Below are positions 3,473-63,858 of a stretch of DNA of 64,000 nucleotides, piece by piece (positions within the stretch are counted from its first letter, which is position 1; every line of letters begins with the position of its first letter). The notes beneath the pieces were generated by a model, which was not told where the DNA came from, did no database searches, and was given only the letters and a program-made list of their open reading frames with translations. Source of the DNA: an uncultured Candidatus Peribacteria bacterium (GTDB taxonomy: Bacteria > Patescibacteriota > Gracilibacteria > Absconditabacterales > Absconditicoccaceae); contig CAZIVH010000002.1 of assembly GCA_964542965.1 (NCBI GenBank), positions 487 through 64,486 on the forward strand, written 5' to 3'. Position numbers and translations under genes: made by a program.

Positions 3473-3655
3473 AATATAATTTTAAATTTTAAATTCTAAA
3501 TTTTTAAACCATTTTTATTAGAATTGTATACTAGTTTTTAGTATTTTGGCTTGAATTTTCAACCACATTACTCATAAATCACGATAATCTACGATAGTTC
3601 ATGAGAAGATAATTCCAGCACTATTCACCATTACCTATTCACTTTTCACTGAAAT
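3473..3655 (-). repeat. Intergenic core + heptad-arm element, copy 1 (core 3571-3621, reverse orientation)
   Basis: rc core is GTGCTGGAATTATCTTCTCATGAACTATCGTAGATTATCGTGATTTATGAG. Flanks are TATTCAC/CATTACC/TATTCAC/TTTTCAC heptads (3622-3649) and TTTAAAT/TTTAAAT/TCTAAAT (3481-3501). It fills the divergent mutL / 3656 spacer. Confidence 0.6.
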
Positions 3656-6903: not shown

Positions 6904-7030
6904 AAATTAATAATTGATAATTAATAATGAATAATGTTGGTATTGCTGAAATGGACTATTGTATCTAGCAATAGTAAATAACAAGACAAAACGGAAATCA
7001 TTCATTGTTAATCATTCATCATTCATTTAT
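6904..7030 (+). repeat. Intergenic core + heptad-arm element, copy 2 (core 6936-6985)
   Basis: Left arm AATTAAT/AATTGAT/AATTAAT/AATGAAT. Core GTTGGTATTGCTGAAATGGACTATTGTATCTAGCAATAGTAAATAAC with hairpin ACTATTG (6955-6961) / CAATAGT (6969-6975). Right arm AATCATT/CATTGTT/AATCATT/CATCATT. Confidence 0.65.
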
Positions 7031-31303: not shown

Positions 31304-31307
31304 TTGA

Positions 31308-32508: not shown

Positions 32509-32595
32509 GTGAAATTTGAAATTTACAATTTGAAATTTGAAAACGTAAATACGCGATTTCAAAATTTTAAATTTCGCCTTTCAAATTCAAAATTC
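32509..32595. repeat. Heptad-arm inverted repeat (TTTGAAA flavour) filling the rplL-rpsB spacer
   Basis: gtgaaatttgaaatttacaatttgaaatttgaaaacg taaatacg cgatttcaaaattttaaatttcgcctttcaaattcaaaattc. Confidence 0.55.
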
Positions 32596-43430: not shown

Positions 43431-43471
43431 AAAAAAAATCGGGCTAGAGGCATATACGCATATCCTAGCCC
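43431..43471 (-). terminator. Terminator downstream of pyk and repeat copy 3
   Basis: rc GGGCTAGG...CCTCTAGCCC followed by GATTTTTTTT. Confidence 0.45.
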
Positions 43472-43500: not shown

Positions 43501-43630
43501 AATTAATGAACAATGAATAATTAATAATGAATAATGTTGGTTGTATCTTCTTATGGACTATTGTAATTTATAATAATCCATCAAAAGACATTCCGTCATT
43601 ATTCATTTTTCATTTTTAATTATTAATTTT
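43501..43630 (+). repeat. Intergenic core + heptad-arm element, copy 3 (core 43536-43595)
   Basis: Arm AATTAAT/GAACAAT/GAATAAT/TAATAAT/GAATAAT. Core GTTGGTTGTATCTTCTTATGGACTATTGTAATTTATAATAATCCATC with a 12-bp hairpin ATGGACTATTGT / ATAATAATCCAT. Arm CATTATT/CATTTTT/CATTTTT/AATTATT abuts the pyk stop. Confidence 0.65.
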
Positions 43631-44633
43631 ATTTATATTTCTGGGCTTCGCTTATCACTTTGTTCATCACTTTGAGGCATTCGATAGGATATTTTCCCAC
43701 TGCAGTCTCTCATGAAAGCATAACATATTCAGCACCTTCACGCACCGCATAAAAAATATCGCTCACTTCCGCTCTTGTAGGCACTGGATTGGAAATCATG
43801 GATTCCAACATCTGTGTCGCTACGATCACGGGAGTGTTTTTTATCTTACACCTTTTGATAATTTCCATCTGATAAAACGGTATTGTCTCTACGGGCAACT
43901 CAGCTCAGAGATCGCCTCTAGCAACCATGACCATATCGCTCGCATCTATAATATCCTCCAAATGGTCTATCCCTTCATGATTCTCTATCTTGGCGATAAT
44001 CTTCACTCCTTTTGCCGATATGTTTTTTAGATATCCCCTCAACTGTTCGATATCTTTCTTACTTCTCGTGAAACTTACGGCTATGTGAGAAAACCTGTTT
44101 TTGATAGCAAATGCGACATCCGATAAATCCGATTCTCCTAAGGTCGGCAATTTGTAATGCACTCCTGGCGTGTTGATATGTCTTCTTGATCATACGGTGA
44201 ACGATGTCAACGCTTCTACAACTAAACTTTCTGATCATTTTTCCACAACCTTTACATCGAACAACCCAGAATCGATCTTGATGATTGTCCCTATCTTTGC
44301 GTCCTTGATCAGTGGTGCATAATCACAGAGCAAATCACGATCTCCTCTTTTGCTCTCTTTGGATACTATCCTAAATTTTTCTCAAACTTCATAAGCAATG
44401 GGCTTTTCAAGGATTCACGTCCTTACCTGCGGTCATGCCGTATCTATCAATAACTCGAATTTCCCTCCAATTTTTTTTTCTGCCTGACGGATTGTTGTGA
44501 GATCTCTTGCAACTGTTGTCTGCGTATAATGAGGAAAATTAAACCTCAATATCCTGACGCCGTTTTTGTAGCATTCGATCAATTGATCCTCCGTATTCGT
44601 CGCTGGTCCTATTGTCATTACAATACCCGTCAT
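43629..44633 (-). CDS. pyk: Pyruvate kinase, short form (334 aa; A and B domains, no C-terminal domain)
   Basis: ...LLIDTA-[TGA 44433-44435]-PQVRT-[TGA]-ILE matches DTKGPEIRTG. ...MVARGDL-G-AELP..., ...VIVATQMLESMISNPVPTRAEVSDIFYAV..., ...MLS-G-ETAVGKYP... Ends 20 aa after the GETA motif. Confidence 0.85.
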
Positions 44634-44678
44634 AGACTACATTAATAAATAAAGCTTAACATTTAGTATTCAACATTG

Positions 44679-46202
44679 TTATTTTACCGTATACATCTTT
44701 TTCTCTCCCAACAATTCCTTCGCCAATCTAATTTTACTTTCATCATTTGCATACATCGTATAGATTACTTCACCTTTTTTGACTGTATCGCCAAGTTTCT
44801 TATGAAGATATAATCCTGCCTGGAGATCCAATGGAGATCCCAATGTCCTTGCCGTAAGATTAACGACTTTCATATCGATATCCTTCACTTTCCCATTCTT
44901 CTCTGCATGAATATCATGCTGTATATCTGCCAATTCCAGTCCTTCAGATTTTACGTTAGGATTGCCATGCTGTGCTTTGATGATTTTTTGCATCATTGTT
45001 CGCGCCTTTCCTGAAACCAATTGCCCATATGCTAATTTCTCCGCCTCTTTGCCTTTTGCCTTGCCTACCATCTCTATGATTTTTGCACACAGATGTATAG
45101 CTTTTTTTTCTAGATCCATAGGTCTATCAGGATGCTGTTGCAACACCCTCAACACTTCTCTCACCTGCAAAACCGCTCCGATACCCGCACCAATAGGTTG
45201 CAATGCATCGGTAATCTCTACGGTCATTTTCATGCCGAGTTTCTTACCCACATATTCGTATTTTTGCTTAAGCCGTTTTGCGGTTTTCATATCAGGCACC
45301 TTGGCGCTTGGACCAACAGGGATATCGATCAATGAATGGTTGATGCCCATCGCATATTTTTTTGCCATGATGCTCACAATAGTCCTAGAGTAGGATTGCA
45401 TAGACAGCGGATATGCTACTTTGATGAGTTTTTCATCTGCAGGAGCGAGGTCCAATCCTCCACCCCAAACCAAACAGCAATTATTTTTCTTCACTAGCGC
45501 TTCGATCTCTTTTTTACTGAACGATATATCCATAAGCACACTTACGCATTCACCGGTAGCAGCCGGCGTCGTAATAGCTTTGGAAAATGTCTTTGGCATC
45601 TTGATGCCCAATGAGGTAAGCAACGGGATCATGATCATTGTTGTCTCATTCCCCGGCACTCCTCACATGCAATGTTTATCCGCTACTATACCTGGGAAAT
45701 GAAGCATTTCCCCCGTCTCAGCCATCGCTTTTGCCATCCGATAGAGATCCTCATCTTTGGAAGGATAAAAGAATCCCATCGCAGAGAAATACGTCGTCAA
45801 GATATCAGTGAATCTATTGTTTGAGATATCTTGCATGATTGCTTTAATCTCCTTTTGATTGAGTCTTTTGCCTGTCAATCATTTCTTGAGCGCGTCCAAC
45901 GATTCAGGCGTATTCTTGGTATATGATACTGTTACGAGTTGTCCTGGCTTGATTTCGTATTTTTCTTGGATATCCCTAAAAATACCTATTTCTCAGCGTT
46001 GCACGATTTTGGAGGTAAGATTGGCATCAAAGACAAATTCCTTGTCATCATAAATCAGCGCTACCTTGTCCATACTCGTGATGCCATGTTCCCAAGCATC
46101 TTGTTCATTGACAAGGACAACTAGATCCTCTCCTTCATGGATATCGATAATCCTTGTCCTCGCAGCAAATAAATCTTTTTTTGTCTTTTTTGTTTTGTTC
46201 AT
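44679..46202 (-). CDS. deoA: AMP phosphorylase (archaeal-type thymidine-phosphorylase family with N-terminal extension)
   Basis: Track ORFs 44679-45659, 45663-45878 and 45993-46202 share a frame; gaps checked. 507 aa with ...DKHCM-G-GVPGNETTMI... and ...CCLVWGGGLDLAPADEKLI... Confidence 0.8.
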
Positions 46203-46228
46203 ATGGGTATATTCATCAAAATAAAATA

Positions 46229-46495
46229 TTATCCAACTAGATCTTCGAGTTCTCTATCATCAAGATAGAAGATAATCAATCACACTATCAATGAAACGAT
46301 CATGCTCCATACGGGGTGATTTGGAAACAAATACATATCTGACAATCACCGTATACCTCTTCGGATAAGTACAACCGCCACTACCATCAACAGCATATAC
46401 ATATTCTTCTTGGTCTTCTTCCGTTGAGAGAAACGAAAACGCACATGCTGAATATGCTTCTTCACAACATTTTTATGCAATGACGCTGTTTTCAT
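46229..46495 (-). CDS. Small membrane protein (88 aa), speculative
   Basis: MKTASLHKNVVKKHIQHVRFRFSQRKKTKKNMYMLLMVVAVVLIRRGIR-G-LSDMYLFPNHPVWSMIVSLIV-G-LIIFYLDDRELEDLVG. Read codon by codon. Lies between RuBisCO and AMP phosphorylase. Confidence 0.35.
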
Positions 46496-46528
46496 CTTCT
46501 TATAGCATATCAAATAAATAAAGAACGG

Positions 46529-47953
46529 TTATTTCTTTCTCTTTTCAAAGAATTCAATCGCCTGAGCTAATTCTTCGTGATCCTTTGCATATTCATGGAT
46601 ATCAATCCCTTTCTGATATGCCTCGCAAGCTTGCACTAGTGCTGTCGCTCCTTTTCTGGTTCCACCCGGATGCGCATGACATCCCGCTCCCATCGTCGTA
46701 ATAAAATCAACATTTCCCATCACATCGATAAATGGTTTGAGCAAAGTAGGATTGAGCCCTCCGGAAATAATCGGCGCACATTTCTTAATCCCTCTCCATG
46801 AGTCATCTTGCAATACTGCATGATGCGCTATATCTTTTTGGATATCTTGTACGAAATTCTCATCGGCTTCAGGGATTGTTCCCCATGATTGATGAAACAT
46901 ATGTCCATCAGCTACGAGATTCAAGATATTATGTGCAGCGGTCACATCCTCTTCAGGCGATCCTGCCATTTTCCCCACACCAGCAGTACCGGTATGGATA
47001 CCTGATGTTCCTGCCAACCTTGCAAATTTAGACAGCACCAATACCGTATATCCGATAGGATTTTCCGGTCTTGTGAAAGCACCATGTCCTGCTCTATGAA
47101 AATGGATGAAAACATCAGGATATTTTCTTCTCAAGGTTTGCACTGCCATCCATCCTGCTGTTGTTCCATCGATAAGGAACGCATATGAACCCTTTTCCAT
47201 GCCGGAGTTGACGATCATTTCACATCTCTTGATCATAGTATCGTAATCAGCTGCAGAGACATTGAACGAGTGAACTTTTTTTTGGCCGGTCTCTTTGACT
47301 GCCTTATCCATAGCTTCTTTGACATTCTTCACCATCTTGTCGTACGGACAAAAATCCTGGTCAGCCTGCGGTTCATCGTTTTTGACAAAATCGCCGCCGC
47401 CTACTCGGAAATCATAGGCTACTTCAGCATATTCCGCTGAGGTAAGTCCCATCTTTGGCTTCACGATAGTTCCCAAGATAGGTCTATCGTAAACATTGAG
47501 ATATTTTCTCATATCGTCCAAGGTATAGCTTGGACCATCGTATTGTTCAAGCATAGCAGGCGGGAATCGTACATCCAGCAGTTTCAATGCTTTTATCTCT
47601 TTCATCCCGAAAATATTTCACGCGATATAGGTCATGATATTCTGTACATTCCCTCACCTATCCCGAAGTCTCCGAGGATACGCGATCCACACAATATTTT
47701 TCTCCATATCCACTTTGTATACGAGAGAATTCATCTCACGTGCAAAAGGCGTTTCCGTCTTGACGGCAAAATTCGTCCCTGTGGAAGATTCTGCAGATAC
47801 TTCACATGCTGCCTGGAGAATATTGAGATTCCCGCCTGGTAATAAGTGAAATGCACAAAGCATATATTCACCATTCTCTGGATCCTTGAGATCTAAGTTT
47901 ACATAGGCTAACTGATGTTCATTGAGCGTAGGTAAGAGTTCTTTAATGTCCAT
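46529..47953 (-). CDS. rbcL: RuBisCO large subunit, form II/III type (474 aa)
   Basis: Track ORFs 46529-47605 and 47654-47953 joined through 2 TGA: ...RDR-G-GNVQNIMTYIA-[TGA 47618-47620]-NIFGMKE... Form-II-like active-site block GGGDFVKNDEPQ. ...HFHRAGHGAF..., ...ISGGLNP... Confidence 0.9.
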
Positions 47954-48023
47954 TTTTGTTTATGTTTATAGAAGATAAAAAGGCTTTTTATAATTATATA
48001 TTCTTTATACTTTTTTGTCAAAT

Positions 48024-50354
48024 CTAGGTGATAGCATCTTCTTGGAAAGCGTTTTCTACATCTGGCAACGCTTCACTCTTATCTATAAATTCATTGAATG
48101 CTAATTGCATATCCGTCCTTTCTAGATAAGATTGGTCTGTACTTATCTCCTGCGTCAATTGATAGCTGAATTTCTCTAATGTCATAGGTTCGATTATAGG
48201 ACGCGCATAGGAATTGTTTTTGAATATAGAGAAGAACCTTGCGTAGGTCTGTAGATATCCATAAGGTTGATCAGCATTCTTCTCTTGAGCAACAATGGTT
48301 TTGTCCATATTTTCCTGAGCATCTTTTGTCATCATAGTTATATTCTCCGTATGCTTATGATCAGTCTGTCCCAACAATCATAGTGCATATCTAGCATCGT
48401 TCGTTCATGCTTTGGACAGGTTGATCATATAGTTTTTTTTCTTCTGTCCCATATCCTGGATACTTTTCCTAAAAGACTCAAGCTGGGCTATCCCATATTC
48501 TCTGAGACTAGCATCTATCAAACTCAGCATTGCGTATACCTCTGCATTGTTTGCCGAAGAAAACGTCTGATTTGGCATCGCTTCAATATCCTGTTCCATG
48601 AAAGTGAATATTTCCTGTACTGCCATATCCTTCATGATATTCCTTTTGAATCGCATTTTTTCCGTCTCCATATTGAAATTTCATGATTTTTTGACAGTTT
48701 CATTCAATGCGCTTGCGACATTTTCTTTGTATTCCTCTACATCATCAGCATTTTCCACTAATTCTTTGTAATCAAGCGATTTCGCACCTATAATGAAATC
48801 ATCGAATGCTGGCAATTGTATGTCAGGGATTTCCATTTTCCCGTTTTTAGGATCTTTGATAAAGAACGGTCCGTTGATTTTTTCTCTTTTCATGAATACT
48901 TCCTGTTCGAGCTTCCCTGTCGTTAAGTTGTAATATAGTTTCAAATTTTTCCCATTCATTTTTCCATCGATATTCAGGATAATATCCTCGCCTTTTTTTT
49001 CAACAAGATCGTTTTCTTCTGATTTTGCACGTCTAAATTGTTCTAATACATTTTCTTCTGTAGATAGATCTATATCCATATACGTTTTCAAAACATCCAA
49101 ACAACTGGTCACCGCTTGTTCTTCAACCGTCTTTTTCGTTTCTTTCATCAAATCATCTTCCGCTCATGATTTTTTGTTCTTTATCTCCATAAGTTTCTGC
49201 AATTTTTCTTTTTCTTTGTCTGTCGGATTCTTGATCTTCATCAATTCCTGTATCTGAGGATCTTCTTGTATAGATGCATCCAATGTCGGATAGAGTTTTC
49301 TCATGCTTTCGTAATATGCAAGGTCTTTTTTTTCATCGCTAACGAGTTGCATGTCCATATATTTATCGAAATACGATTGTACATCCTTATGCTGGACGAC
49401 TTCATTCTTCACTTCATCCATAGGAGATGCCGTCACTTTCTCTGTATACTCCACTACCATGTTTTTCACTTTTTCATAGAGTTCTCACCATGTCTCTTTC
49501 AAAAATTCACCCAACCCGACCGATTCATTATACTCATAATATCTTTTGACCAATGCATCATATTTTTGCTGTTCTTCCTTGGTCATTTTCTCTCTCAAAC
49601 CATTCTTTTCGATAAGTAGCATATCCTGTTCAAGTCCCATAGCCTTATAGATATCCTCTCTATTCCCATATGTTTTATTCAACGCGTTTTTTTCTTCCTG
49701 GGATTTTTTTTCATACGCTATTTGCATATTTTCATTTGTAGACCGCGCTATATTAGGATAATTAGCTTTTATCGTTTCGAAATCTTTAGCAAATTTTTCT
49801 AGCTGGATTCCGTTAGCGATCTGTTCCATTGTCGGATACGCATTCACATTATTCGATGAATTGCTGACTATATTTTTCCCTTTTTCTGCTTGCTGTATAA
49901 TATAAAATCTCAGCCCATCATCTGATACATCATTCAATTTTTTCTTATCCCCATCTTCCAATCCGTTCATATATGACGAAAACGTTTCGTATTTTGCACC
50001 AGGACCCACAAGCTCTTTTATGATTGCCTGTTTGTTTGAGCTAAAACCACTCAATGCTTTGTCCTGTAATCATCAGAGATCAATTTTTTCACCTTTTTCT
50101 ATTTTTGCGGCAACCAATTCACGCATAGCTATATTGTATTTTATATGCGTGTTTTTATCTGTTCAGTTTTTATATGCGTTCAATGCTTTATTGTATTCCT
50201 CTTTTGAGCATACTCCCAATGCTTGCGCTACATATGGCGCGACTTTTTTTCGATCATATCACATATCAGAGATCATCGTATACAATGTTTTCCCTTTTAT
50301 TTTCCCTGTTTCTATATTTCATTTATCGCTATTTTGCCCTTCTGTTCGTTCCAT
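48024..50354 (-). CDS. Large hypothetical protein (776 aa) embedded in the AMP-salvage cluster
   Basis: Track ORFs 48024-48377, 48405-48671, 48681-49151, 49164-49469 and 49485-50054 share one frame. All junctions are TGA. Frame followed upstream to ATG 50354, just after an in-frame TAA. TAG stop at 48024. Lys/Glu-rich, no motif recognised. Confidence 0.65.
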
Positions 50355-50376
50355 GATGAACAATGGTAAATAAAGA

Positions 50377-51318
50377 TTATTTTATCATTCGAGGATAATG
50401 CTTTTTTACTTCTTTTTTTATATCTTTGGGTTTAATGACACCATATTCGGTGATAATTCCGGTAATGAATTTTGCAGGAACGATATCAAATGCGTAGTTC
50501 ACGATTTCTAGTTCTTTCGGAGCATCTGGTCGGAGTTCCTTGCCAGACCTTTGTTCTATCTTGATAGTATTTTCGGCATCTACCTTGAGCAATGATCATG
50601 CGATGTACACAGGAATTTTGGAATGCCAAGCTGCTAATGCTATAGCGAAACTGCCGATTTTATTGAATACATCACCATAAAGAGAAATAGCATCCGATCC
50701 TATGATGACCATATCGATATCCACATCTGATGCGTAGAGATTGTCAACGAAAAACGGTGCAGCCCCATCAACGATCATCGTATTGGGCACTTTTGCTTTG
50801 AGCAGATCCAATGAGGTCTTTCTTCCCTGATACAAAGGCCTTGTCTCCGTATTGTATACATAGATATTTTTCTTTTCTTTGTTATGCGCTTGTACAAGGA
50901 TTTTAATCACCGATCCACTGTGGCAGTGTGTCATGATATTCATGCGTTTCTTGATAAGCTTTGCTCCAATCAATGGCCTTAACGCCTCTTCTGTCTCTAT
51001 ATCTTGAATATAGGATTTACAAGCTTTGTATAATTTTTCTTGGATAGTCTTGATGTCGCTCTTGTTTTTGAGCAATGCCTTGTATTCGAAGAGACAATCC
51101 TTGATTCCATTGAACAACATCGGCTCGGTATCCCTAGATGTTTTGAGCAACACTATGGCCTGTTTGAAAAACGTATCGAATTCCTTGAGATCTTTGAACT
51201 TTTGTCTTTTGATCTCTTTGGCAAGGATATCTATCCCTGCTTTGGCGATATTCGTCGCTCACTGGATCTTGATACTCTTGATATCTTCAGCAACCGCCTT
51301 GATAGGAGTGAGATTCAT
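50377..51318 (-). CDS. e2b2: Ribose-1,5-bisphosphate isomerase (eIF-2B alpha/beta/delta-like)
   Basis: MNLTPIKAVAEDIKSIKIQ-[TGA 51259-51261]-ATNIAKAGIDILA... (the RGA..IA motif), ...MTHCHSGSV..., ...VIIGSDAISLYGDVFNKIGSF... Track ORFs 50377-50592 and 50596-51153 joined. Confidence 0.8.
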
Positions 51319-51320
51319 CA

Positions 51321-51457
51321 TTAGAAATAAATTAAGAATTAAAAATTAATAATGAATAATGTCGGTATTGTTTTATTATCGCCTATTGTAATATACGATA
51401 CTCCATTTCAGCGAATCTTTCATTTTTCATTGTTCATTATTCATCGTTCATTAAAAG
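51321..51457 (+). repeat. Intergenic core + heptad-arm element, copy 4 (core 51361-51417); fills the whole spacer
   Basis: Arm ...TTAAGAA/TTAAAAA/TTAATAA/TGAATAA. Core GTCGGTATTGTTTTATTATCGCCTATTGTAATATACGATACTCC (hairpin TATTGTA ata TACGATA with a G.U pair). Arm TTCATTT/TTCATTG/TTCATTA/TTCATCG/TTCATTA. Confidence 0.65.
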
Positions 51458-51742
51458 TTAAATGTTTTTGTTGTAGAGCGACATAAAGAAAGATTCGAAT
51501 AGATGATATTCTTCTGGGTGGAAGTCTATCACGATAGGATCATCATCATCGATAATATAGATCTTCACTCTCTTGTAGTCATCGAATTGCTCGGTGATGA
51601 TATATTTCACCTGTTGCTCAAAAACAATGAGACATGTTTCCTTGAGCGCGTTGGATTTACCATCGCTAAAACACACTTGAACACATTCTTTGGCTGGATT
51701 CTTTACATCCACCACTCTGAATAAATCGAAATCTAAGGCCAT
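51458..51742 (-). CDS. Hypothetical protein (94 aa)
   Basis: Intact ORF, ATG to TAA. Confidence 0.45.
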   Translation of the reverse strand: MALDFDLFRVVDVKNPAKECVQVCFSDGKSNALKETCLIVFEQQVKYIITEQFDDYKRVKIYIIDDDDPIVIDFHPEEYHLFESFFMSLYNKNI

Positions 51743-51753: not shown

Positions 51754-52737
51754 TTATGAATAAAAAGTTTTTTTTTCGCTCAATTTCTGGATATTGAATT
51801 CCTTGAGCAAATTATACATCTGTTTGATATTTTCTGCAGTCACTTCCTGATCTATATCGATAATCTCTTCTACAATATTTTTCAAGAGCGTAACGATCAC
51901 CTGTTGTGCGGGCGTATGATATTTCTGATCTCTCTTGACTCGTTTCACGAAATCGGCTTTAGACAATCGTTGCAAGGTCTCCATCTCCTGAAGCATTTTT
52001 TCCATGGAGAGCGGCTGCATAAAATTACTTTCACTCATCATCCTCTCTTTTTCCTCATATTCTTTGATTGCCTTTTGGATAGCTGTGTATTGGAGCATCT
52101 TGATCATCTCTTCATGATTCACAATCCCATTGCTTTTTCACAGATCTATAGGATCTTCCCTCTTTTTTGCCGTATCACGGAGTTCTGCCTGCCCTCATTT
52201 CGGTGAATAGATAATGGCGTGGTCATTCAAAAATTTTCTAACGATCGCATGTTTATGGAGAGCTTCTTTCTCTGCCCATTCATACTCTTCTCTCGCTCGA
52301 GCGGTGATGACGAACAACGGCAACGATCCGTAGGACAATCCTTTGAGTTGAGAGACATTCCTTTTTGTAAAAACCTCAGGCGCAAATTCTCCAGTCCCTA
52401 TATGGACCAAAATATCCTCTCCCTCATATTGCATCAATGTATAGAGATATTCGTAATTATTCGTTTTCAGATCATCTTCGGTGTAGGCTCATTCTTCCGT
52501 ATATTTTCCGTAATTGATTATTTTTTCTGTCCCATAGCAATACTTAGCAAGCTTCGCTACCGTATCGATGACATGGTTTTTCATATATTCGGAAGCATCG
52601 TGCAATACTTCCACGATATCATCATTATGGTCGCGGATATTGGTTCTCTTGCCGTATACATGTTCTTTTTCCCTATATCTTTCCATACATGCCATGAGAA
52701 ATAAAAAGCCTATTGATTTAAGTATACTCGCAATCAT
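51754..52737 (-). CDS. Hypothetical protein (up to 327 aa; start uncertain)
   Basis: Track ORFs 51754-52122, 52195-52437 and 52489-52737 share a frame and are joined by TGA only. Alternative ATG starts at 52695 and 52686. Confidence 0.5.
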
Positions 52738-53370: not shown

Positions 53371-53500
53371 TTAGTGAAAAGTTAAAAGTGAATAGTGAAA
53401 AGTGTAGGATAGATATATTATGAACTATTGTATATTACGATAGTTTATGAATATACAATTCTATCGTTTTTCACTTTTAGTTTTTCATTCTTAGTTAAAT
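53371..53500 (+). repeat. Intergenic core + heptad-arm element, copy 6 (core 53404-53466)
   Basis: Arm AGTGAAA/AGTTAAA/AGTGAAT/AGTGAAA. Core GTAGGATAGATATATTATGAACTATTGTATATTACGATAGTT (10-bp hairpin AACTATTGTA tat TACGATAGTT, 53423-53445). Arm TTTTCAC/TTTTAGT/TTTTCAT overlaps the pnp stop. Confidence 0.65.
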
Positions 53501-55674: not shown

Positions 55675-55815
55675 AGACAGATTAAAATAATTAATAATGA
55701 ATAATTAATAGTGAATAATGATGGTATTTGTCTTAGTATGAACTATGGTAATGTACCATAATTTCCATCAACTTTCAACTATAAACTATCAACTATCAAC
55801 TCTTTTAATCTGTCT
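55675..55815 (+). repeat. Intergenic core + heptad-arm element, copy 5, closed by a perfect 13-bp inverted repeat; lies in the pnp 5' region
   Basis: AGACAGATTAAAA (55675-55687) pairs with TTTTAATCTGTCT (55803-55815). Arm AATAATT/AATAATG/AATAATT/AATAGTG/AATAATG. Core GATGGTATTTGTCTTAGTATGAACTATGGTAATGTACCATAATTTCC (hairpin TATGGTA atg TACCATA). Right arm AACTTTC/AACTATA/AACTATC/AACTATC. Confidence 0.7.
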
Positions 55816-55844: not shown

Positions 55845-55872
55845 AATATAGCAATTCTTAGGTAAATTGCAA
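55845..55872 (-). promoter_or_regulatory. Putative pnp promoter upstream of repeat copy 5
   Basis: On the minus strand TTGCAA (55867-55872), 16 nt, TATATT (55845-50). This would place copy 5 in the pnp 5' UTR. Confidence 0.4.
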
Positions 55873-56547: not shown

Positions 56548-56591
56548 TGTTTTGTGTTTTTATTGTGTTTTTTTGTTTTTTTCGTTATCCA

Positions 56592-56620
56592 TTCTATATA
56601 TATTTTCTATTAAATGTCAA
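56592..56620 (-). promoter_or_regulatory. Promoter of paralogue 1 (33-nt block identical to 57558-57590)
   Basis: rc AAAAAGGTTGACATTTAATAGAAAATATATATA: TTGACA followed 16-18 nt later by TATAGA/TAGAAT. Confidence 0.5.
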
Positions 56621-57512: not shown

Positions 57513-57554
57513 AATCAGATTTTATTTAGTTTGTTTTGTTTACTTTATTATATA

Positions 57555-57583
57555 TCTTATATATATTTTCTATTAAATGTCAA
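57555..57583 (-). promoter_or_regulatory. Promoter of paralogue 2 (duplicate of 56592-56620)
   Basis: The same 33-nt sequence, tatatatattttctattaaatgtcaaccttttt, at 57558-57590. Confidence 0.5.
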
Positions 57584-58116: not shown

Positions 58117-58260
58117 CAGTGAAAAACTAAAAACTAAAAGTGAAAAACGAATGATTGATCTTTGTATTAACTATCACCATTTTACAATAGTCAATTTCAG
58201 CAATACCTACACTATTCACTTTTCACTATTCACTATTCACTTTTCACTTTTCACTAATAC
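58117..58260 (-). repeat. Intergenic core + heptad-arm element, copy 7 (core 58150-58212, reverse orientation)
   Basis: rc core GTGTAGGTATTGCTGAAATTGACTATTGTAAAATGGTGATAGTTAATAC (near-identical to copy 2 over GGTATTGCTGAAAT.GACTATTGTA). Arms AGTGAAA/AACTAAA/AACTAAA/AGTGAAA and TATTCAC/TTTTCAC/TATTCAC/TATTCAC/TTTTCAC/TTTTCAC. The last arm overlaps the obg 3' end. Confidence 0.7.
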
Positions 58261-59754: not shown

Positions 59755-59830
59755 AAATTAATAATTAAAAATTAAGAATTAAGAATGTAGGTAGTATCTT
59801 ATTATGGACTACTGTAATAAAGTCTATGAG
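59755..59830 (+). repeat. Intergenic core + heptad-arm element, copy 8 (left arm plus core only)
   Basis: Arm AATTAAT/AATTAAA/AATTAAG/AATTAAG. Core GTAGGTAGTATCTTATTATGGACTACTGTAATAAAGTCTATGAG (hairpin ATGGACT...AGTCTAT). Confidence 0.6.
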
Positions 59831-59840: not shown

Positions 59841-59871
59841 AAAAAAAAGGACGCCGTAAACAACGACGTCC
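59841..59871 (-). terminator. Terminator of the PhoH-like gene
   Basis: rc GGACGtcgttgtttacggCGTCC followed by T8. Confidence 0.5.
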
Positions 59872-59891
59872 CTACTACAAATACATTAGTA

Positions 59892-61385
59892 TTACAACAC
59901 ATTAGCTGCTATCTCTGCAAGCTCACTACGTTCGCCCTTCTCAAGTTTGATATGAGCGAAAAGCGGTTGTCCTACCATTTTGAACACCACATACGATAAT
60001 CCATTGGATCGTGAATCCAAATACGGAGTATCGATCTGTCCCGCATCACCGCAAAGGATAATCTTGGTATTTTCCCCTGCACGAGTCACGATAGTCTTCA
60101 TTTCATGAGGAGTCAGATTCTGTGTCTCATCGATAATGAACACGATATTGTTCAAACTTCGTCCACGGATTGCTGCCAAAGGCTGAATCTTGAGTTTTCC
60201 TTCATCTATCAAGATGGAGACAAAATCATCCTTGATTTCCGGTTCTGCTTTCTGAGGACTCTTTTTCTTCTTTTGTTTCGCTTCAGGTTTCACATCTACA
60301 GGATTTCCCTTTTTACCTCTGTGCAAACTCTTGATCAGATCAAGATTGTCATACAACCCCTGCATAAACGGAGCTACTTTTTCTTTCAGATCGCCAGGCA
60401 ACGCACCGATATCCTTATTACTCAAGGGTACGGTTGCTGCTGCAAGGACTAACATATCGCATTTACCCTGCTTAAGTAGATGAAGACCTACCGCTATCGC
60501 GAGCAACGTCTTACCGGTGCCAGCTATGCCAAACAGGGAAATAAGTTTGATATCGTCCTGTAGCATAAGGTTGATGGCGAAAGTCTGCTCCGCATTTCTG
60601 GGAGTAATCCCAGATATTGGCTGCATTTTTTCCACACGATACATTTTTTTCATTGTGGGATTCAATCGCGCCAATACACTACGATTGTCAGTACTCAGGA
60701 TAAAGCACATGTTGGGTTGCTTATCTTCCGGAAGGAGCTTCAGATGCTCCTCTGTCAATTCTACGCCTTTCTCGATATTTTCCTTGTACAGATCGGAAAT
60801 CAATCCAGAAAGATTTTCATTTTTAACTTCTTTTTTTCCGGTGTAGAGTTCATCAACATTAGCTACCTTGTCATTTTCGTAATCTTGAGCTTCCATATTA
60901 ATCCCTTCCGCTTTCAATCGGAGGTTTATGTCCTTACTCACTAAGATTACCTTCTTGTCCTGATTTTTGTCTATCACGTGACAGACGGCACTGAGAATGC
61001 GATGATCGCCTTTTTCCTCGTGAAAAATGTCTTTTACTCGACTGTGGAGTTTTCTCGGAAAGGTTTTGATATGGATCTTACCCATATTTTCACCCAACGA
61101 AACTCCACCATTGAACAATGCAGACACCTCTTTTTTCTCTTTGCCTTTACCGCCTTTCCCGGTATTGACTTCCTGCGTGATACGGACCTTGCGAAACTCA
61201 TCAAGTTGACGATGAAATTCACGGACATTGAATCCTCTTGCATCGCTGTGCTTCTTGTAGGTATCAAGTTCCTCCAATACCGTCATCGGAATGACTACAT
61301 CATGTTCCTGGAACTTATGGATACATGTATGATCATGCATAATCACGTTCGTATCCAGAACGAATACTTTTTTTTCTTTTGCCAT
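59892..61385 (-). CDS. PIN-domain plus PhoH-like ATPase (YlaK-type), 497 aa
   Basis: Intact ORF: N-terminal VFVLDTNVIMHD (PIN); ...LFGIAGTGKTLLAIAVG (Walker A); ...VFIIDETQNLTPHE (Walker B). No TGA codon. Confidence 0.8.
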   Translation of the reverse strand: MAKEKKVFVLDTNVIMHDHTCIHKFQEHDVVIPMTVLEELDTYKKHSDARGFNVREFHRQLDEFRKVRITQEVNTGKGGKGKEKKEVSALFNGGVSLGENMGKIHIKTFPRKLHSRVKDIFHEEKGDHRILSAVCHVIDKNQDKKVILVSKDINLRLKAEGINMEAQDYENDKVANVDELYTGKKEVKNENLSGLISDLYKENIEKGVELTEEHLKLLPEDKQPNMCFILSTDNRSVLARLNPTMKKMYRVEKMQPISGITPRNAEQTFAINLMLQDDIKLISLFGIAGTGKTLLAIAVGLHLLKQGKCDMLVLAAATVPLSNKDIGALPGDLKEKVAPFMQGLYDNLDLIKSLHRGKKGNPVDVKPEAKQKKKKSPQKAEPEIKDDFVSILIDEGKLKIQPLAAIRGRSLNNIVFIIDETQNLTPHEMKTIVTRAGENTKIILCGDAGQIDTPYLDSRSNGLSYVVFKMVGQPLFAHIKLEKGERSELAEIAANVL

Positions 61386-61511: not shown

Positions 61512-61590
61512 AAGCCCCGCAACAACATGGGTGAGTAGCTCAATTGGTTAGAGCAGTCCCGCTAAAGCGGGAAAGGTTCGGGGCTTTTAT
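61512..61590 (+). pseudogene. Partial tRNA-Lys duplicate (acceptor 5' strand, D-arm, altered anticodon arm, 5' T-stem), enclosed by AAGCCCCG/CGGGGCTT and followed by TTTTAT
   Basis: 61523-61556 is identical over 34 nt to 61841-61874. AAGGTTCGGGG is also shared (61573-61583 vs 61890-61900). The anticodon arm is replaced by TCCCGC-taaa-GCGGGA. No T-loop or 3' acceptor strand. Confidence 0.6.
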
Positions 61591-61605: not shown

Positions 61606-61869
61606 ATGTATTATGTATATATCCTGAAATGAGATAAGTACTATGTGTGAATTACGAACAATATACAAAGAAGGTTCGATGAACATAAAAGAGGTAATAG
61701 TTATTTTACAAAAAGGATAGGAAAAAATATTATATTATTATGATGGTTTCAATATTCTACGAAAAAAGAAGCTTTGGAGTTAGAAAGTAAAATTAAAAAA
61801 TCTGGTCATATCGAAAGATGGACCAAAGAAAAAACATTTACAACATGGGTGAGTAGCTCAATTGGTTAG
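61606..61869 (+). CDS. GIY-YIG nuclease superfamily protein (UPF0213/YhbQ-like, 87 aa)
   Basis: MYYVYILK-G-DKYYV-G-ITNNIQRRFDEHKRGNSYFTKRIGKNIILL-G-WFQYSTKKEALELESKIKKSGHIERWTKEK...; GIY...YVG/YIG and R..EH motifs. The last 23 nt overlap the 5' end of tRNA-Lys. Confidence 0.7.
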
Positions 61870-61920
61870 AGCAGGTCCCTCTTAAGGACAAGGTTCGGGG
61901 TTCGATTCCCCGCTCGCCTA
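61847..61920 (+). tRNA. tRNA-Lys (anticodon CUU), no encoded CCA
   Basis: Hand-folded cloverleaf: acceptor GGGTGAG/CTCGCCT (two G.U pairs), D-arm GCTC-AATTGGTTA-GAGC, anticodon arm GGTCC-CTCTTAA-GGACA, variable loop AGGTT, T-arm CGGGG-TTCGATT-CCCCG, discriminator A. Confidence 0.8.
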
Positions 61921-62031
61921 AAGGAAATTAAGATCTGATGGAAGTCGGATTTTTTTTGTTTGAAAACTTTCTCGCTTTGATTATAGTAACCTCATAAATT
62001 TACAATTCACAATTCATAATTTTTTAATTGT

Positions 62032-63858
62032 ATGCATATTATGTTACAATTCGATTCTCTCAAAACATTGGACGCATCCATCACACTCCTGCAAAAAAGA
62101 ATCAAAGATCCGCATACGCTTTTCCTCGTTGGAGGATGCGTCAGAGATCTCCTTTTGGGAATCGAAAAAAAGCCTACTGACATCGACTTCACCATGGCCG
62201 GTGATCCAAAAAAGTTAGATAAACTCATCGACAAAAAAGGCATGTCCTACTTCATGACCGAAAAATTCGGCACGATGACACTCATCAAAAAAATTGAAAA
62301 ATTGAAAAATTGAAAGATGGAAACATTGAATCCTGAAGCAATTAAGTATGAATTGACGCCACTGAGGACAGAAGGTAAATATGATGATTTCAGACACCCG
62401 GGAGAGATTGAACGAAGCAATGATCTCTTACTAGATTCCCATAGAAGAGACTTCACGATCAACTGCATCTATTATGCGAATACGAAACGGACACAAGAGC
62501 ATGAAAAACATATCGCTAAAAAATACATCCACCATTATTCTGACGACGACACGTTCGTCCAGAGATTGAACGACCAGGGATATATTCTCATCAAGGATTT
62601 GAATCTCTTGATACTCCAAGACCATAAACATATCTCCAAACTCTTCAAAGGGTGATGTTTCCATGACGATCATCTCGTAGAGATGTTGAAGTCCGTAACG
62701 ATTTTTTCTACAAAAAAGAATTGAAAATTAAAAATTGAAAATTGAAAATTACTACGTATCGTAGTTGATCCGCACAAAGGGATACAAGATAGTATCTACA
62801 AAAGATTGAGAGCAGTCGGCGATCCGGACAAAAGATTCAATGAAGATGCGTTGAGAATTGTGAGAGCGATTAGGTTTGTGAATGTACTTAATGAAAAATT
62901 GAAAAATTGAAAGATGGGAAAATTGAAAGATGGGAAAAATAGTGATAAAGTAACGTTGTTTGATTTTGAGAAAGCGACATGGAATAGCGTCAAAAAGAAT
63001 CATGAACTCGTAAAAAACGTAGCGAAAGAGAGAATCAAGGAAGAGATCATGAAAGCGTTTACGGTAGGCAATCCGTTCGGTTTCATCGCCTTGCTTGACG
63101 AAGCAAAACTGCTCGAACATTTATTCCCTGCCTTATACGCGACCAAAAATATCGAGCAACCCATCAGATATCATCCGTTTGATGTGTATGTTCACACGCT
63201 CCTCTGCTTGTTTGAATTGCAGAAAATAAATAAAGATCCTCTTGTGAGATTAGCGATGCTCTATCACGATGTCGGCAAGGTGGATCAATTCGGCGCGTAC
63301 GCTGACGGACTGAGCAAAGAAGAGATCAGAGAGATTCTCGCTGGGCCGCTGAATCACAGAAGAAGCTCACCGGAATACGCGAAGAAAGATTTCAAATCGC
63401 TCGGATTCTCCAGCAAAGAGATTACGGAAATAGCTCGATATATCGCCCATCACCACACGCCGGAAGAAATGATTTTCGCCAAAGAGGAAAATAGAGAGAA
63501 AAAAGTGAGATCTTTCCTTAGCGAAGCGGGCTACGAAAGAGCTATGAATGTCTTGGATATTGCGATGGCTGATAGATTGGGACAATATAACCCACTACAG
63601 AATAGTTCTGACATTTCCGATGTAGATGAAATCAGGAAAATCCTAAAAAAACTTCAGAAGCAAGAAGGACAATTCACGATGAAAAACCTCGCTATCGACG
63701 GAGCATATATCATGAAAGAATTAAAACTCCCTGCATGACCGACTATCGGAAAATTACTAAAAAAGACCCTTGAGTGGGTCATGACGGATATCAAAGCAAG
63801 GAATGAGAAGAAGCAGATATTAGGATTTTTGAAGATACAAATGAGACACCTGAAATAA
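62032..63858 (+). CDS. cca: CCA-adding tRNA nucleotidyltransferase with HD domain (608 aa) carrying three in-frame heptad-repeat insertions
   Basis: ...LFLVGGCVRDLLLG...PTDIDF..., ...RRDFTINCIYY..., ...LRAVGDPDKRFNEDALRIVRAIRF..., ...YHPFDVYVHTL...LYHDVGK... Track ORFs 62032-62313, 62317-62655 and 62914-63738 share frame 1. Gaps read by hand: TGA only. TAA 63856. Confidence 0.8.
62287..62330 (+). repeat. ATTGAAA-flavour repeat inside cca, site 1 (encodes KIEKLKN-G-KMETL)
   Basis: aaaaaaattgaaaaattgaaaaattgaaagatggaaacattgaa; shares ATTGAAAGATG with the spacers at 21071-21083 and 33080-33090. Confidence 0.55.
62712..62752 (+). repeat. ATTGAAA-flavour repeat inside cca, site 2 (encodes KKN-G-KLKIEN-G-KL)
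   Basis: aaaaaagaattgaaaattaaaaattgaaaattgaaaattac. Confidence 0.5.
62890..62940 (+). repeat. ATTGAAA-flavour repeat inside cca, site 3 (encodes NEKLKN-G-KMGKLKDGKN)
   Basis: aatgaaaaattgaaaaattgaaagatgggaaaattgaaagatgggaaaaat. Confidence 0.55.

What the first reader, a model, noticed from the sequence alone, without database searches (positions are those of the whole stretch)
51321..51457. Family of ~130-180-bp intergenic elements: conserved ~45-nt core with a covarying hairpin, flanked by locus-specific heptad-repeat arms (8 copies in 64 kb)
Copies are at 3473-3655(-), 6904-7030(+), 43501-43630(+), 51321-51457(+), 53371-53500(+), 55675-55815(+), 58117-58260(-) and 59755-59830(+).

Each has the following parts:
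1. An arm of 4-6 tandem 7-mers ending in ..RTG. The flavours are AATAATG/AATTAAT or GTGAAAA/GTGAATA.
2. A core: G-T-N-G-G-T-A-T-T-G, then N8-10, then T-A-T-G-R-A-C-T-A-T-T-G-T-A-A-T.
3. A partner strand that pairs back onto ACTATTGTA, with compensatory changes. Examples: TATTGTA/TACGATA, TATGGTA/TACCATA, ACTATTG/CAATAGT, ATGGACTATTGT/ATAATAATCCAT, ATGGACT/AGTCTAT.
4. Usually a second heptad arm of roughly complementary flavour.

Several copies occupy the entire spacer from one gene's stop to the next gene's start (e2b2, pnp, rlmH/obg). Orientation relative to the flanking genes is mixed: 3 are co-oriented with the downstream gene and 5 are antisense. That argues for a DNA-level or strand-symmetric role, or for a mobile element.

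Six of the eight cores also contain an SD-like GG(A/T), 11-15 nt, then ATG-(GAC/AAC)-TAT-(TGT)..., a mini-ORF (MDYCN/MNYCI) of 5-8 codons. I cannot match this to any RNA family, REP/BIME, MITE or protein-binding site that I know.
Basis: seen in the sequence. Interest (0 to 1): 0.75.

Follow-up and report, generated by a model that had tools for sequence, protein, structure and literature searches.

The report
Palindromic heptad-repeat spacers between genes
Eight spacers between genes in this UGA-recoded SR1 (candidate phyla radiation) bacterium carry the same nested DNA palindrome flanked by 7-base tandem repeats; it is a new variant of bacterial intergenic palindromic repeats, not a structured RNA gene, and it seems tied to how genes without ribosome-binding sites are spaced.

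Summary
All eight copies exist at the stated coordinates. They are the only matches in the window to a covariance model, and all lie in the 12.9% of the window that is intergenic.

- The element is a quasi-palindrome that scores almost equally on both strands, so "mixed orientation" has no meaning.
- The apical hairpin is a conserved palindrome without statistical covariation.
- The "mini-ORF" ATG is present in only 10 of 24 instances.

Relatives with 70-96% PNPase identity carry the family, often in the same spacers. Distant CPR genomes and RAAC1-SR1 do not. One ortholog pair is 88% identical where third codon positions are 44-51% identical.

Arms change by whole heptads (21-nt and 7-nt indels). 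Cores and arms reassort between loci. Short forms lack the apex.

Seven-base periodicity is a habit of the whole clade (42 of 49 periodic spacers; outgroups 1 of 35). It has a polarity. Arrays after stop codons are purine-rich and carry ATG/GTG. Arrays 5-30 nt before start codons are U-rich and free of start codons. None of 43 genes has a Shine-Dalgarno motif.

Best reading: a REPIN/MITE-like nested palindrome family built on heptamer repeats and used as operon spacer and leader. The mechanism is inferred.

The parts
51321..51457 (.). Copy c4 (the focal copy). It fills the spacer from the stop of a 94-aa gene (51458-51742, minus strand) to the start of the e2b2/IF-2B-family gene (50377-51321, minus strand).
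   Evidence: CM scores 82.7 bits (+) and 63.1 bits (-). 88% identical to its ortholog in L016, where third codon positions are 44-51% identical.
51330..51361 (-). c4 arm next to the e2b2 start. On the gene's strand it reads CATTATTCATTATTAATTTTTAATTCTTAATT. It is U-rich, has no ATG/GTG, and ends 8 nt before the start codon (51321).
   Evidence: Sequence. The same arm lies upstream of the e2b2 homologue in L004, L005, L006, L010 and L016. Motif polarity; array polarity.
51362..51377 (.). c4 GG box plus linker (TCGGTATTG TTTTATT). The GG is invariant across the family.
   Evidence: Alignment A2, invariant column G14.
51378..51406 (.). c4 apical palindrome: ATCGCCTATTGTA-ATA-TACGATACTCCAT.
51420..51454 (-). 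c4 arm next to the upstream stop codon. On the gene's strand it reads (AATGAAN)n, is purine-rich and has an ATG in every unit.
3473..3655 (.). Copy c1, the most diverged. It lies in the divergent spacer between mutL (1735-3468, minus strand) and a 137-aa gene (3656-4069, plus strand). Apical region at 3571-3605.
   Evidence: (49.9 bits).
6904..7030 (.). Copy c2, in the 3' untranslated region after a 733-aa gene. Apical palindrome at 6954-6975. It shares the derived linker GGTATTGCTGAAAT with c7.
43501..43630 (.). Copy c3. It starts right after the pyruvate kinase stop (43629) and is followed on the gene's strand by an intrinsic-terminator-like hairpin at 43431-43471. This makes it a 3'-UTR copy with no downstream gene.
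   Evidence: (81.3 and 70.7 bits).
53371..53500 (.). Copy c5. It fills the spacer between the pnp stop (53495) and the start of a GyrI-like 186-aa gene (53362). Heptads are GTGAAAA/TTTTCAC; apical palindrome at 53420-53448.
   Evidence: Fold z-scores -6.6 (+) and -4.6 (-). The ortholog in L005 differs by a 7-nt indel.
55675..55815 (-). Copy c6, nested inside the conserved stem of the pnp leader. Outer stem: 55803-55815 pairs with 55675-55687 (AGACAGATTAAAA / TTTTAATCTGTCT). On the mRNA strand the arms pair only through G-U (GUUGAUA with UAUUAAU).
   Evidence: (z -6.8 on the sense strand, -2.0 on the antisense). The L005 ortholog differs by one 21-nt (3-heptad) indel.
55845..55872 (-). pnp promoter-like site, TTGCAA-16-TATATT, upstream of the leader stem. 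It is context, not part of the repeat.
   Evidence: Conserved in all relatives.
58117..58260 (.). Copy c7. It fills the obg stop to rlmH start spacer; the first heptad overlaps the obg stop codon. Apical palindrome at 58166-58195.
   Evidence: The start-proximal arm is identical over 30 nt to that of L018.
59755..59830 (-). Copy c8, a half element (apical hairpin plus the start-proximal arm only). It lies between the phoH terminator (59841-59873) and the obg start (59741).
   Evidence: (25.1 bits).

Best explanation
The eight loci belong to a lineage-restricted family of nested, quasi-palindromic DNA repeats. These repeats make up untranslated spacers of operons in an SR1/Absconditabacteria lineage that reads UGA as a sense codon and lacks Shine-Dalgarno sites.

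**Shown**
- Each element has three nested layers: outer complementary arrays of 7-nt tandem repeats; an inner GG...CC clamp with TATTTGTCTTATTAT/ATAATAAGACAAATA; and an optional apical 13-bp palindrome, GGACTATTGTA-loop-TACAATAGTCC.
- Arms grow and shrink by whole heptads.
- Cores and arms are exchanged between loci.
- Some copies stay in the same spacer across genomes whose synonymous sites are saturated.
- The arm after the upstream stop codon is purine-rich and full of ATG/GTG. The arm 5-30 nt before the downstream start is U-rich and free of start codons.

**Inferred**
- The family spreads and is homogenised by DNA-level processes: 7-nt replication slippage, templated correction within the palindrome, and copying or gene conversion between loci by an unknown enzyme.
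- It is co-transcribed with its neighbours.
- Selection keeps the U-rich arm as the leader of the downstream gene.
- In many copies the two arms zip into a long hairpin that juxtaposes stop and start and masks the leader. That hairpin would then act in translational coupling, mRNA processing or stabilisation.
For: **The family is real and palindromic**
-.

**Modularity**
- Short forms made of arms + TTGG + AT loop + CCAA, without the apex, occur in metagenome loci.
- c2 and c7 share a derived linker but have different arms. c5 and c7 share arms but not the linker.
- c6 sits inside a pnp-leader stem that is short and simple in L016, L006 and L012, and is extended by other heptads in seven other relatives.

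**Slippage**
- Single 21-nt and 7-nt indels separate orthologs.

**Constraint**
- c4 is 88% identical to its L016 ortholog, against 44-51% at third codon positions.
- The c7 arm is identical to L018 over 30 of 30 nt.

**Restricted to one clade**
- CM hits occur in 10 related loci and in the metagenome loci. There are none in six distant CPR outgroup loci, in RAAC1-SR1, or in L014.

**Periodicity**
- At a score of at least 20, lag 7 accounts for 42 of 49 periodic spacers among 159 spacers of relatives. One of 35 outgroup spacers qualifies.

**Polarity**
- 26 of 34 arrays lying within 30 nt upstream of a start are pyrimidine-rich, and 4 of 34 contain ATG/GTG.
- 20 of 28 arrays lying within 30 nt downstream of a stop are purine-rich, and 18 of 28 contain ATG/GTG.
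- The motif ATTATTCATTATTAATT faces a co-oriented start within 30 nt in 24 of about 44 occurrences, and faces a gene end in about 11.

**Expression signals**
- 0 of 43 genes has an SD motif.
- Canonical sigma-70-type promoters and intrinsic terminators exist elsewhere in the window, so the elements are not standing in for those signals.

**Hairpin formation**
- Own arms rank 1st to 3rd of 17 as pairing partners in most elements.
- Fold z-scores for c5, c6 and c7 are -3.9 to -6.8 on the better strand.
Against: - There is no strand rule for folding. Among periodic spacers between co-directional genes, the sense strand folds better in 13, the antisense in 9, and they are similar in 13. c5 and its L005 ortholog fold better as antisense.
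- c4 is highly conserved yet folds no better than shuffles on the sense strand (z = +0.3). Its conservation is therefore of sequence, not of structure.
- c2 and c3 lie in 3' UTRs with no downstream gene. c1 lies in a divergent spacer.
- The apical hairpin shows no covariation.
- Orthologous loci are counted several times in the polarity statistics; there are perhaps a dozen independent loci.
- The polarity could simply reflect which insertions are tolerated (no upstream AUG before a start codon) rather than a positive function.
- No transcript data were available, and no enzyme for spreading was identified.
Confidence: 0.42

Rival explanations
1. A purely selfish, non-autonomous mobile element of the REPIN or MITE type. 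An unidentified transposase (a RAYT-like Y1 enzyme or another) moves it into spacers and hairpin tips. It has no host function. The polarity only reflects which insertions are tolerated.
For: - It is a dispersed multi-copy palindrome found only in spacers.
- Presence varies at orthologous spacers. For pnp to the 186-aa gene: a core element in the window and L005; different octad arms in L004 and L001; only a small GC hairpin in L011, L016 and L018. For the 507-aa gene to pyruvate kinase: an element in L008, none in the window.
- It is nested inside the conserved pnp-leader stem.
- Modules are shared between non-homologous loci.
- The flavour at one spacer disagrees with protein relatedness.
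- It occurs in every kind of spacer: co-directional 35 of 112, divergent 6 of 27, convergent 4 of 20.
- Its architecture resembles REP doublets that form hairpins (PMC3116915).
Against: - Paralogs are only about 55-75% identical, while some orthologs are 87-92% identical, including locus-specific features. This points to old, individually constrained copies rather than recent bursts.
- No target-site duplication or sharp termini are visible.
- The GTAG tag of RAYT-mobilised REPs is present in only 3 of the 8 window copies.
- No transposase was found among the window proteins scanned.
- The pattern is absent from viral contigs.
Confidence: 0.25
2. A double-stranded DNA site for a lineage-specific protein. 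The 13-bp inverted repeat with a 3-7 bp spacer would be an operator for a dimer, and the heptad arrays would act like iterons for cooperative binding, for example by a nucleoid-associated protein or a global regulator.
For: - Sequence is conserved rather than pairing: there is no covariation, and c4 is conserved yet folds poorly.
- Scores are almost equal on the two strands.
- There is no strand preference in folding.
Against: - The heptad sequence differs widely between elements (GGGACAT, AAAGCTT, TTTAGAA, GATTGCG and others), so no single binding specificity fits the arms.
- In c6, L019 and L004 the arms are complementary only through G-U on one strand. That has no meaning for duplex DNA.
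- Arm polarity follows the direction of the genes.
- No candidate protein was identified.
Confidence: 0.12
3. A neutral by-product of a clade-specific mutational habit (7-nt slippage plus template switching that perfects quasi-palindromes), with neither mobility nor function.
For: - Heptamers are the commonest long simple repeats in many bacteria and have been attributed to polymerase slippage (Mrazek 2007, as summarised in PMC4679880).
- Each spacer can carry its own heptad.
- Octamer and heptamer arrays even expand in frame inside the CCA-enzyme gene.
Against: - The same roughly 75-bp palindrome recurs at many unrelated loci.
- An ortholog pair is 88% identical where synonymous sites are saturated.
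- The arrays have a strong polarity relative to stop and start codons.
Confidence: 0.1
4. A structured cis-regulatory RNA or small RNA gene with a covarying hairpin and a translated 5-8 codon mini-ORF. This is the RNA-centred part of the first reader's description.
For: - The hairpin is well paired (81.7% of cells).
- There is one compensated variant, TATGGTA/TACCATA, in c6 and its ortholog.
Against: - Covariation is no better than in shuffles, and RNAalifold finds no consensus structure.
- There is no Rfam match.
- The ATG is present in only 10 of 24 instances.
- This genome does not use SD sites.
- The apex is missing in short variants.
Confidence: 0.04

Closest known systems
Paired (convergent) heptameric simple-sequence repeats in Xanthomonas (GGGAATC), and the related Nostoc GGGGAYT repeats (Rehm et al. 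2015, PMC4692102)
   Same: - Tandem 7-nt units in spacers.
- About 70-75 cases per genome in which two arrays lie close together on opposite strands and can form stem-loops.
- The kind of repeat (single or paired) is kept between related species while the number of units changes.
- Located within 50 bp of starts and stops.
   Different: - There, a single G-rich unit per genome is credited with G-quadruplex formation.
- Here, many different A/T-rich units occur in one genome, there is no G4 potential, and a conserved roughly 75-bp palindrome lies between the arrays.
TAACTGA heptamer direct repeats upstream of start codons in Beggiatoaceae, Cyanobacteria and Bacteroidetes (MacGregor 2015, PMC4679880), and cyanobacterial STRR heptamers
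   Same: - Heptamer arrays lie a few nucleotides upstream of start codons, in spacers that lack canonical ribosome-binding sites.
- A role in translation initiation has been proposed.
- Here, 0 of 43 genes has an SD motif and arrays end 5-30 nt before starts.
   Different: - TAACTGA repeats are one fixed unit and almost never inverted (169 direct sets, one indirect).
- Here the units vary, usually come as complementary pairs, and flank a conserved core.
[quoted passage not shown]
   Same: - A dispersed, extragenic inverted doublet of about 100 nt, predicted to form a hairpin in ssDNA or mRNA.
- Mostly found between co-directional or convergent genes.
- Probably transcribed.
- Non-coding.
   Different: - The halves are not themselves GC-rich 20-40 bp palindromes.
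- The GTAG tag is not conserved (GTNGG, with N = T, C or A).
- The element is AT-rich and has tandem-repeat arms.
- No RAYT gene is known for it.
MITEs that are co-transcribed and fold into long hairpins, such as Neisseria Correia elements (my own knowledge; reviews PMC3184786 and PMC2229807 were listed but not read)
   Same: - Size of 100-150 bp, inverted ends, location next to genes.
- Presence or absence varies between relatives.
- Potential RNase III substrates.
   Different: - No defined terminal inverted repeats or target-site duplication were found.
- The ends are fuzzy heptad arrays.
- Several copies are conserved by descent across deep divergence.
The pnp leader stem-loop of E. coli, cut by RNase III for PNPase autoregulation (my own knowledge)
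   Same: All relatives have a promoter followed by a conserved long stem in the pnp 5' untranslated region. Copy c6 extends that stem.
   Different: This applies to only one of the eight copies, and cleavage was not tested.

Membership tests
REP / REPIN (RAYT-associated) | Dispersed extragenic palindromic repeat present in many copies | tested here: met
   8 of 8 copies are intergenic in a window that is 12.9% intergenic. There are further copies in relatives.
REP / REPIN (RAYT-associated) | Conserved unpaired GTAG (or CGTC) tag at one end of each REP (PMC3733652) | tested here: not met
   The corresponding position reads GTNGG. GTAG occurs in c5, c7 and c8 only; the others read GTTGG, GTCGG, GATGG or GCTGG.
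REP / REPIN (RAYT-associated) | Two REPs, each a 20-40 bp palindrome, in inverted orientation forming a larger hairpin | tested here: inconclusive
   The overall inverted doublet and hairpin are present, but the half-sites are not palindromes themselves.
REP / REPIN (RAYT-associated) | A linked RAYT (Y1 transposase) gene in the same genome | not testable with these tools
   Only 64 kb plus roughly 20-kb loci of relatives were available. None of the window proteins scanned against Pfam is a transposase.
MITE | Defined terminal inverted repeats and a target-site duplication | tested here: inconclusive
   The inverted arms are there, but the ends fade into heptad arrays. No consistent flanking direct repeat is visible in 28 instances.
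MITE | Filled and empty sites at orthologous positions | tested here: met
   In the 507-aa to pyruvate kinase spacer: 45 nt without an element in the window, 169 nt with an element in L008. The pnp to 186-aa spacer varies among relatives.
MITE | An autonomous parent element with the same ends | not tested
   None was seen in about 0.5 Mb of related loci, but no dedicated search was possible.
Heptameric long simple-sequence repeats (LSSR/STRR class) | At least 3 tandem 7-nt units, enriched in spacers, with the number of units varying between relatives | tested here: met
   TRF arrays. Lag 7 dominates, with 30 of 32 at the strict threshold. Indels of 21 nt and 7 nt separate orthologs.
Rfam structured RNA family | A match at the gathering score, or statistically supported covariation | tested here: not met
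   At gathering score only a tRNA and the L10 leader match. With the E-value threshold, no match over an element is better than E 3-4. Covariation is no better than in shuffles.
Intrinsic terminator | Short GC-rich stem followed by a U tract | tested here: not met
   The elements are AT-rich (GC 0.24-0.33) and have no U tract. Canonical terminators lie beside c3 and c8.
Leader peptide / small ORF | Conserved start codon, reading frame and ribosome-binding site | tested here: not met
   ATG is present in 10 of 24 instances. No SD motif is used anywhere in the window.

The most novel reading that the evidence does not exclude
A subclade of SR1 bacteria, which lack Shine-Dalgarno sites and read UGA as glycine, builds many of its intercistronic spacers from a 'leader / anti-leader zipper'. 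A U-rich heptad array without start codons serves as the ribosome landing site of the downstream gene. A complementary purine-rich array begins at the upstream stop codon. A conserved palindromic clamp holds them together. A terminating ribosome would unzip the base of the hairpin and so hand over to, or unmask, the next start. This would be translational coupling across 130 nt, tunable in steps of 7 nt by slippage. The module is copied between loci.
Probability: 0.15. Interest if true: 0.8.

Novelty: new variant of a known kind. Interest (0 to 1): 0.55.

Why it matters
- How candidate-phyla-radiation bacteria with tiny genomes organise gene expression is little known. In this window no gene has a Shine-Dalgarno site, and about a quarter of the longer spacers in this clade are periodic heptad arrays, with a strict purine-to-pyrimidine polarity between stop and start.
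- If the arrays and their palindromic clamp act in translation initiation or coupling, they would be a compact, slippage-tunable control device. They would also give a function to bacterial heptamer repeats, which are still unexplained.
- If they are selfish, they are a new REPIN-like family in a phylum where none is described. They would be a handy marker for strain typing and for checking genome bins.
- In either case, gene callers and RNA-motif scans on such genomes should expect them.

Tried and rejected
- **Rfam.** At gathering and at E-value thresholds there is nothing on the elements.
- **RNAalifold** on 24 instances predicted no pairs.
- **Promoter reading of the core.** I tried TTGGTA-16-TATTGT on one strand, TACAAT/CATAAT as -10 boxes on the other, and a sigma-54-like GG-N10 spacing. 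Spacings are wrong or variable. The consensus scan finds fewer promoter-like sites than in shuffles (53 against 60.9). The real promoters in the window are clean TTGACA-17-TATAAT types located elsewhere. Rejected.
- **Terminator reading.** The elements are AT-rich and lack a U tract, and canonical terminators lie next to c3 and c8. Rejected.
- **Uptake-signal-like motif.** No short exact word is highly repeated. The most repeated 12-mers are simply the arms of this family, at 4 loci. Rejected.
- **Strand of action from G-U asymmetry.** No rule emerges: 13, 9 and 13.
- **Source contig.** It could not be retrieved by exact protein look-up.
- **L001 against L002** for slippage polymorphism: the two loci are identical, so uninformative.
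- **Viral contigs:** no match.
- **Literature search** for repeats in Absconditabacteria or Gracilibacteria: nothing relevant.
- **Automated extraction of arms** from long spacers was too noisy. I replaced it with a hand-curated set.
- **Hidden longer ORF across c4** under code 25: it is not conserved in L016, judged by reading the sequences.
Full report
**Setting**

With TGA as a stop codon the window breaks into short ORFs. With only TAA and TAG as stops it gives full-length genes, including 1272- and 1290-aa RNA polymerase subunits and a 710-aa PNPase. UGA is therefore a sense codon (code 25 or 4).

The best relatives of a PhoH-like protein include the RAAC1 SR1 genome. PNPase relatives with 70-96% identity are MAGs labelled SR1, Absconditabacterales or 'Peribacteria'.

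Yes.
- All eight copies are present and align.
- The core word is enriched: 21 matches against 4.9 expected, and 0 of 100 shuffles reach 21.
- A covariance model built from 24 instances and run without filters over the window returns these eight loci and nothing else convincing.
- All eight lie in intergenic DNA, which is 12.9% of the window.
- The arms are the most repeated 12-mers in the window.

*Orientation.* The element as a whole is an imperfect palindrome. On either strand it reads: heptads, ATG-NNGG, TATTTGTC, TTATTAT, GGACTATTGTA, a loop of 3-7 nt, and then the complement of all of these. Profile and covariance-model scores are nearly equal on both strands. The reported "mixed orientation" is therefore an artefact of whichever half is less decayed.

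*Covariation.* On 24 instances the 13-bp apical stem is 81.7% paired, against 25-52% when the partner is slid. But changes on both sides (3 pairs, 5 cells) are no more frequent than in shuffles (438 of 500 do as well). At the most variable pair there are 8 broken cells against 2 compensated ones. RNAalifold predicts nothing. This is a conserved palindrome, not a covarying helix.

*Mini-ORF.* Its ATG is present in only 10 of 24 instances. No gene in the window has a Shine-Dalgarno motif (0 of 43).

**Anatomy is modular and nested**

- Metagenome loci found with the arm plus GG-box pattern often lack the ACTATTGTA apex. They consist of arms, TTGG, an A/T loop and CCAA.
- c8, and copies in L005 and L006, are half elements.
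- c2 and c7 share a derived linker (GGTATTGCTGAAAT) but have different arms. c5 and c7 share arms but not the linker.
- c6 lies inside a stem (AGACAGATTAAAA...TTTTAATCTGTCT) that follows a conserved TTGCAA-16-TATATT promoter upstream of pnp in every relative. That stem is short and simple in L016, L006 and L012. It is extended by unrelated heptads in L001/L007, L015, L018, L011, L009 and L013, and by a core-bearing element in the window and L005.

**Arms**

- Seven-base periodicity is a habit of the clade. Among 159 spacers of 60-400 nt in relatives, 32 are strongly periodic, and 30 of those have lag 7. At a looser threshold 42 of 49 have lag 7. Only 1 of 35 outgroup spacers qualifies.
- Many spacers carry heptad or octad hairpins without the core, for example rpoB-rpoC at 25651-25724.
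- Own arms pair far better than foreign arms.
- Orthologs differ by whole units: a single 21-nt indel in c6 against L005, and a 7-nt indel in c5 against L005.
- Within one arm a substitution can be spread over all units. In L004 and L005 the stop-proximal arm reads GATGAAT five times, while the partner arm is unchanged. This is concerted evolution within an arm.

**Evolutionary behaviour is mixed**

*Persistence and constraint.*
- The obg-rlmH and x-e2b2 spacers carry an element in most relatives.
- c4 is 88% identical to its L016 ortholog, while third codon positions of the flanking genes are 44-51% identical. The two share locus-specific features.
- The c7 arm next to rlmH is identical to L018 over 30 nt.

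*Turnover.*
- The pnp to 186-aa spacer holds a core element in the window and L005, octad arms in L004 and L001, a different long hairpin in L006, L007 and L009, and only a small GC hairpin in L011, L016 and L018.
- The flavour at one spacer disagrees with protein relatedness.
- Some copies are closest to paralogs in the same genome.

*Distribution.*
- CM hits are confined to part of the clade. There are none in L006, L007, L009, L011, L013, L014 or L017, in six distant CPR outgroup loci, or in RAAC1-SR1.

**Relation to gene expression**

- The genome has ordinary sigma-70-type promoters (TTGACA-17-TATAAT at 48021) and intrinsic terminators. Two of the terminators lie beside c3 and c8, so the elements are additional to these signals.
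- c4, c5 and c7 fill the stop-to-start spacer. c2 and c3 are 3'-UTR copies. c6 and c8 are in 5' regions. c1 is in a divergent spacer.
- Folding gives no strand rule: sense better in 13 spacers, antisense better in 9, similar in 13. Fold z-scores on the two strands:

| Copy | Strand | z-score |
|---|---|---|
| c6 | sense | -6.8 |
| c6 | antisense | -2.0 |
| c5 | plus (antisense to the genes) | -6.6 |
| c5 | minus (sense) | -4.6 |
| c4 | sense | +0.3 |
| c4 | antisense | -1.7 |

- There is, however, a clear polarity in composition:

| Arrays | Number | Composition | Contain ATG/GTG |
|---|---|---|---|
| Within 30 nt upstream of a start | 34 | 26 pyrimidine-rich | 4 |
| Within 30 nt downstream of a stop | 28 | 20 purine-rich | 18 |

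- The conserved arm motif ATTATTCATTATTAATT faces a co-oriented start codon within 30 nt in 24 of about 44 occurrences, and a further 6 within 100 nt. About 11 face a gene end.
- Orthologous loci are counted repeatedly in these figures, so the number of independent observations is nearer a dozen.

**Interpretation**

The safest statement is that this is a lineage-restricted family of nested palindromic intergenic repeats built on heptamer simple-sequence repeats.

I favour the view that it has become the spacer and leader of operon genes in an organism without SD sites. The U-rich arm without start codons would be the constrained leader. The purine-rich arm and the clamp could fold back on it.

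That the hairpin acts in coupling, processing or stabilisation is inference. The selfish REPIN/MITE-like reading remains a strong rival, and the two are not exclusive.

**Comparison with what is known**

- Heptamers are the commonest long simple repeats in bacteria and have been attributed to polymerase slippage (Mrazek 2007, as summarised in PMC4679880).
- TAACTGA heptamers lie just upstream of start codons in SD-poor spacers of Beggiatoaceae, with a proposed translational role.
- Xanthomonas GGGAATC arrays occur as 70-75 convergent pairs per genome. Their type is kept and the number of units varies between species.
- REPINs are inverted REP doublets that form hairpins and are moved by RAYT transposases. 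REPs carry GTAG or CGTC tags.
- The present family shares features with each of these but fits none. It has many different A/T-rich units, a conserved 75-bp palindrome between the arrays, no conserved GTAG tag and no known transposase.
- My literature searches found no description of such elements in SR1 or Gracilibacteria.

Noticed in passing
whole window (e.g. 21793-25611, 25731-29603, 34790-39130): UGA is read as a sense codon. With TGA as a stop the RNA polymerase genes and many others fragment; with TAA/TAG only they are full length. One 1446-aa ORF holds 68 in-frame TGA codons.
   Followed up: partly
upstream 20 nt of all 43 confident genes in the window: No gene has a Shine-Dalgarno-like motif (GGAG, GAGG, AGGA or GGGG) between -20 and -4. 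Leaders are A-rich after promoters and U-rich heptad arrays inside operons.
   Followed up: partly
62289-62330, 62719-62750, 62892-62940 (inside the CCA-adding/poly(A) polymerase-family gene 62032-63858): There are three in-frame insertions of AAATTGAA-type tandem octamers and heptamers. They encode K/L/N/G-rich loops (for example KLKNGKMGKLKDGKN) in which some of the Gly codons are TGA. They are present or absent among orthologs (window and L005 against L004, L016 and L001).
   Followed up: yes
25651-25724 (rpoB-rpoC spacer), 29820-29879, 33026-33139, 21048-21110, 20397-20422, 31277-31305, 32510-32542, 61997-62021: These are further heptad or octad arrays, mostly complementary pairs forming hairpins but without the ACTATTGTA core. 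The rpoB-rpoC one uses GGGACAT/TCCCTTG units and keeps a GGTATTTGG box.
   Followed up: partly
55845-55872 and 55675-55815; L001, L006, L007, L009, L011-L013, L015, L016, L018 upstream of pnp: A promoter-like site and a long leader stem upstream of pnp are conserved in all relatives. This recalls the RNase III-cleaved pnp leader of E. coli (my own knowledge). Its apex is a hotspot for different heptad expansions.
   Followed up: partly
61529-61556 versus 61847-61874: The first 28 nt of tRNA-Lys(CUU) are duplicated about 320 nt upstream, in a tRNA-like fragment that ARAGORN does not call. A similar fragment lies next to the tRNA in L005, L004 and L001. It may be a scar of an integration at the tRNA, or an odd tRNA.
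   Followed up: no
56591-56620 and 57554-57583: Two nearly identical promoter and leader segments (TTGACATTTAATAGAAAATATATATA) precede two genes for signal-peptide-like 201-aa and 248-aa proteins. Some relatives lack these genes between rlmH and pnp (L006, L009, L011, L013, L015 and L016 have rlmH directly followed by pnp).
   Followed up: no
L005:7753-7897, L005:1946-2092, L001:6380-6509; L004:8724-9263: Relatives carry other families of spacer repeats. One is a GC-rich multi-hairpin element (CCTCCTTTCGTAAAGGAGG...). Another is a GTCATTCCCGCGAAAGCGGGAATC-type repeat. In L005 the first of these takes the place of the c7-type element in the obg-rlmH spacer.
   Followed up: no
59892-61385 (phoH-like), 51754-52737, 48024-50363: Divergence from close relatives is very uneven along the syntenic block. 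The PhoH-like protein is 53% identical to L005, and the 327-aa and 779-aa proteins 25-35%, while neighbouring Obg, PNPase and RuBisCO-like proteins are 86-95% identical. These genes have either been replaced or evolve fast.
   Followed up: no
43629-51321: A gene cluster typical of the CPR nucleoside-salvage route: an e2b2/IF-2B-family isomerase, a RuBisCO large-subunit homologue (46529-47953), a nucleoside/AMP phosphorylase-like protein (44679-46202) and pyruvate kinase.
   Followed up: no
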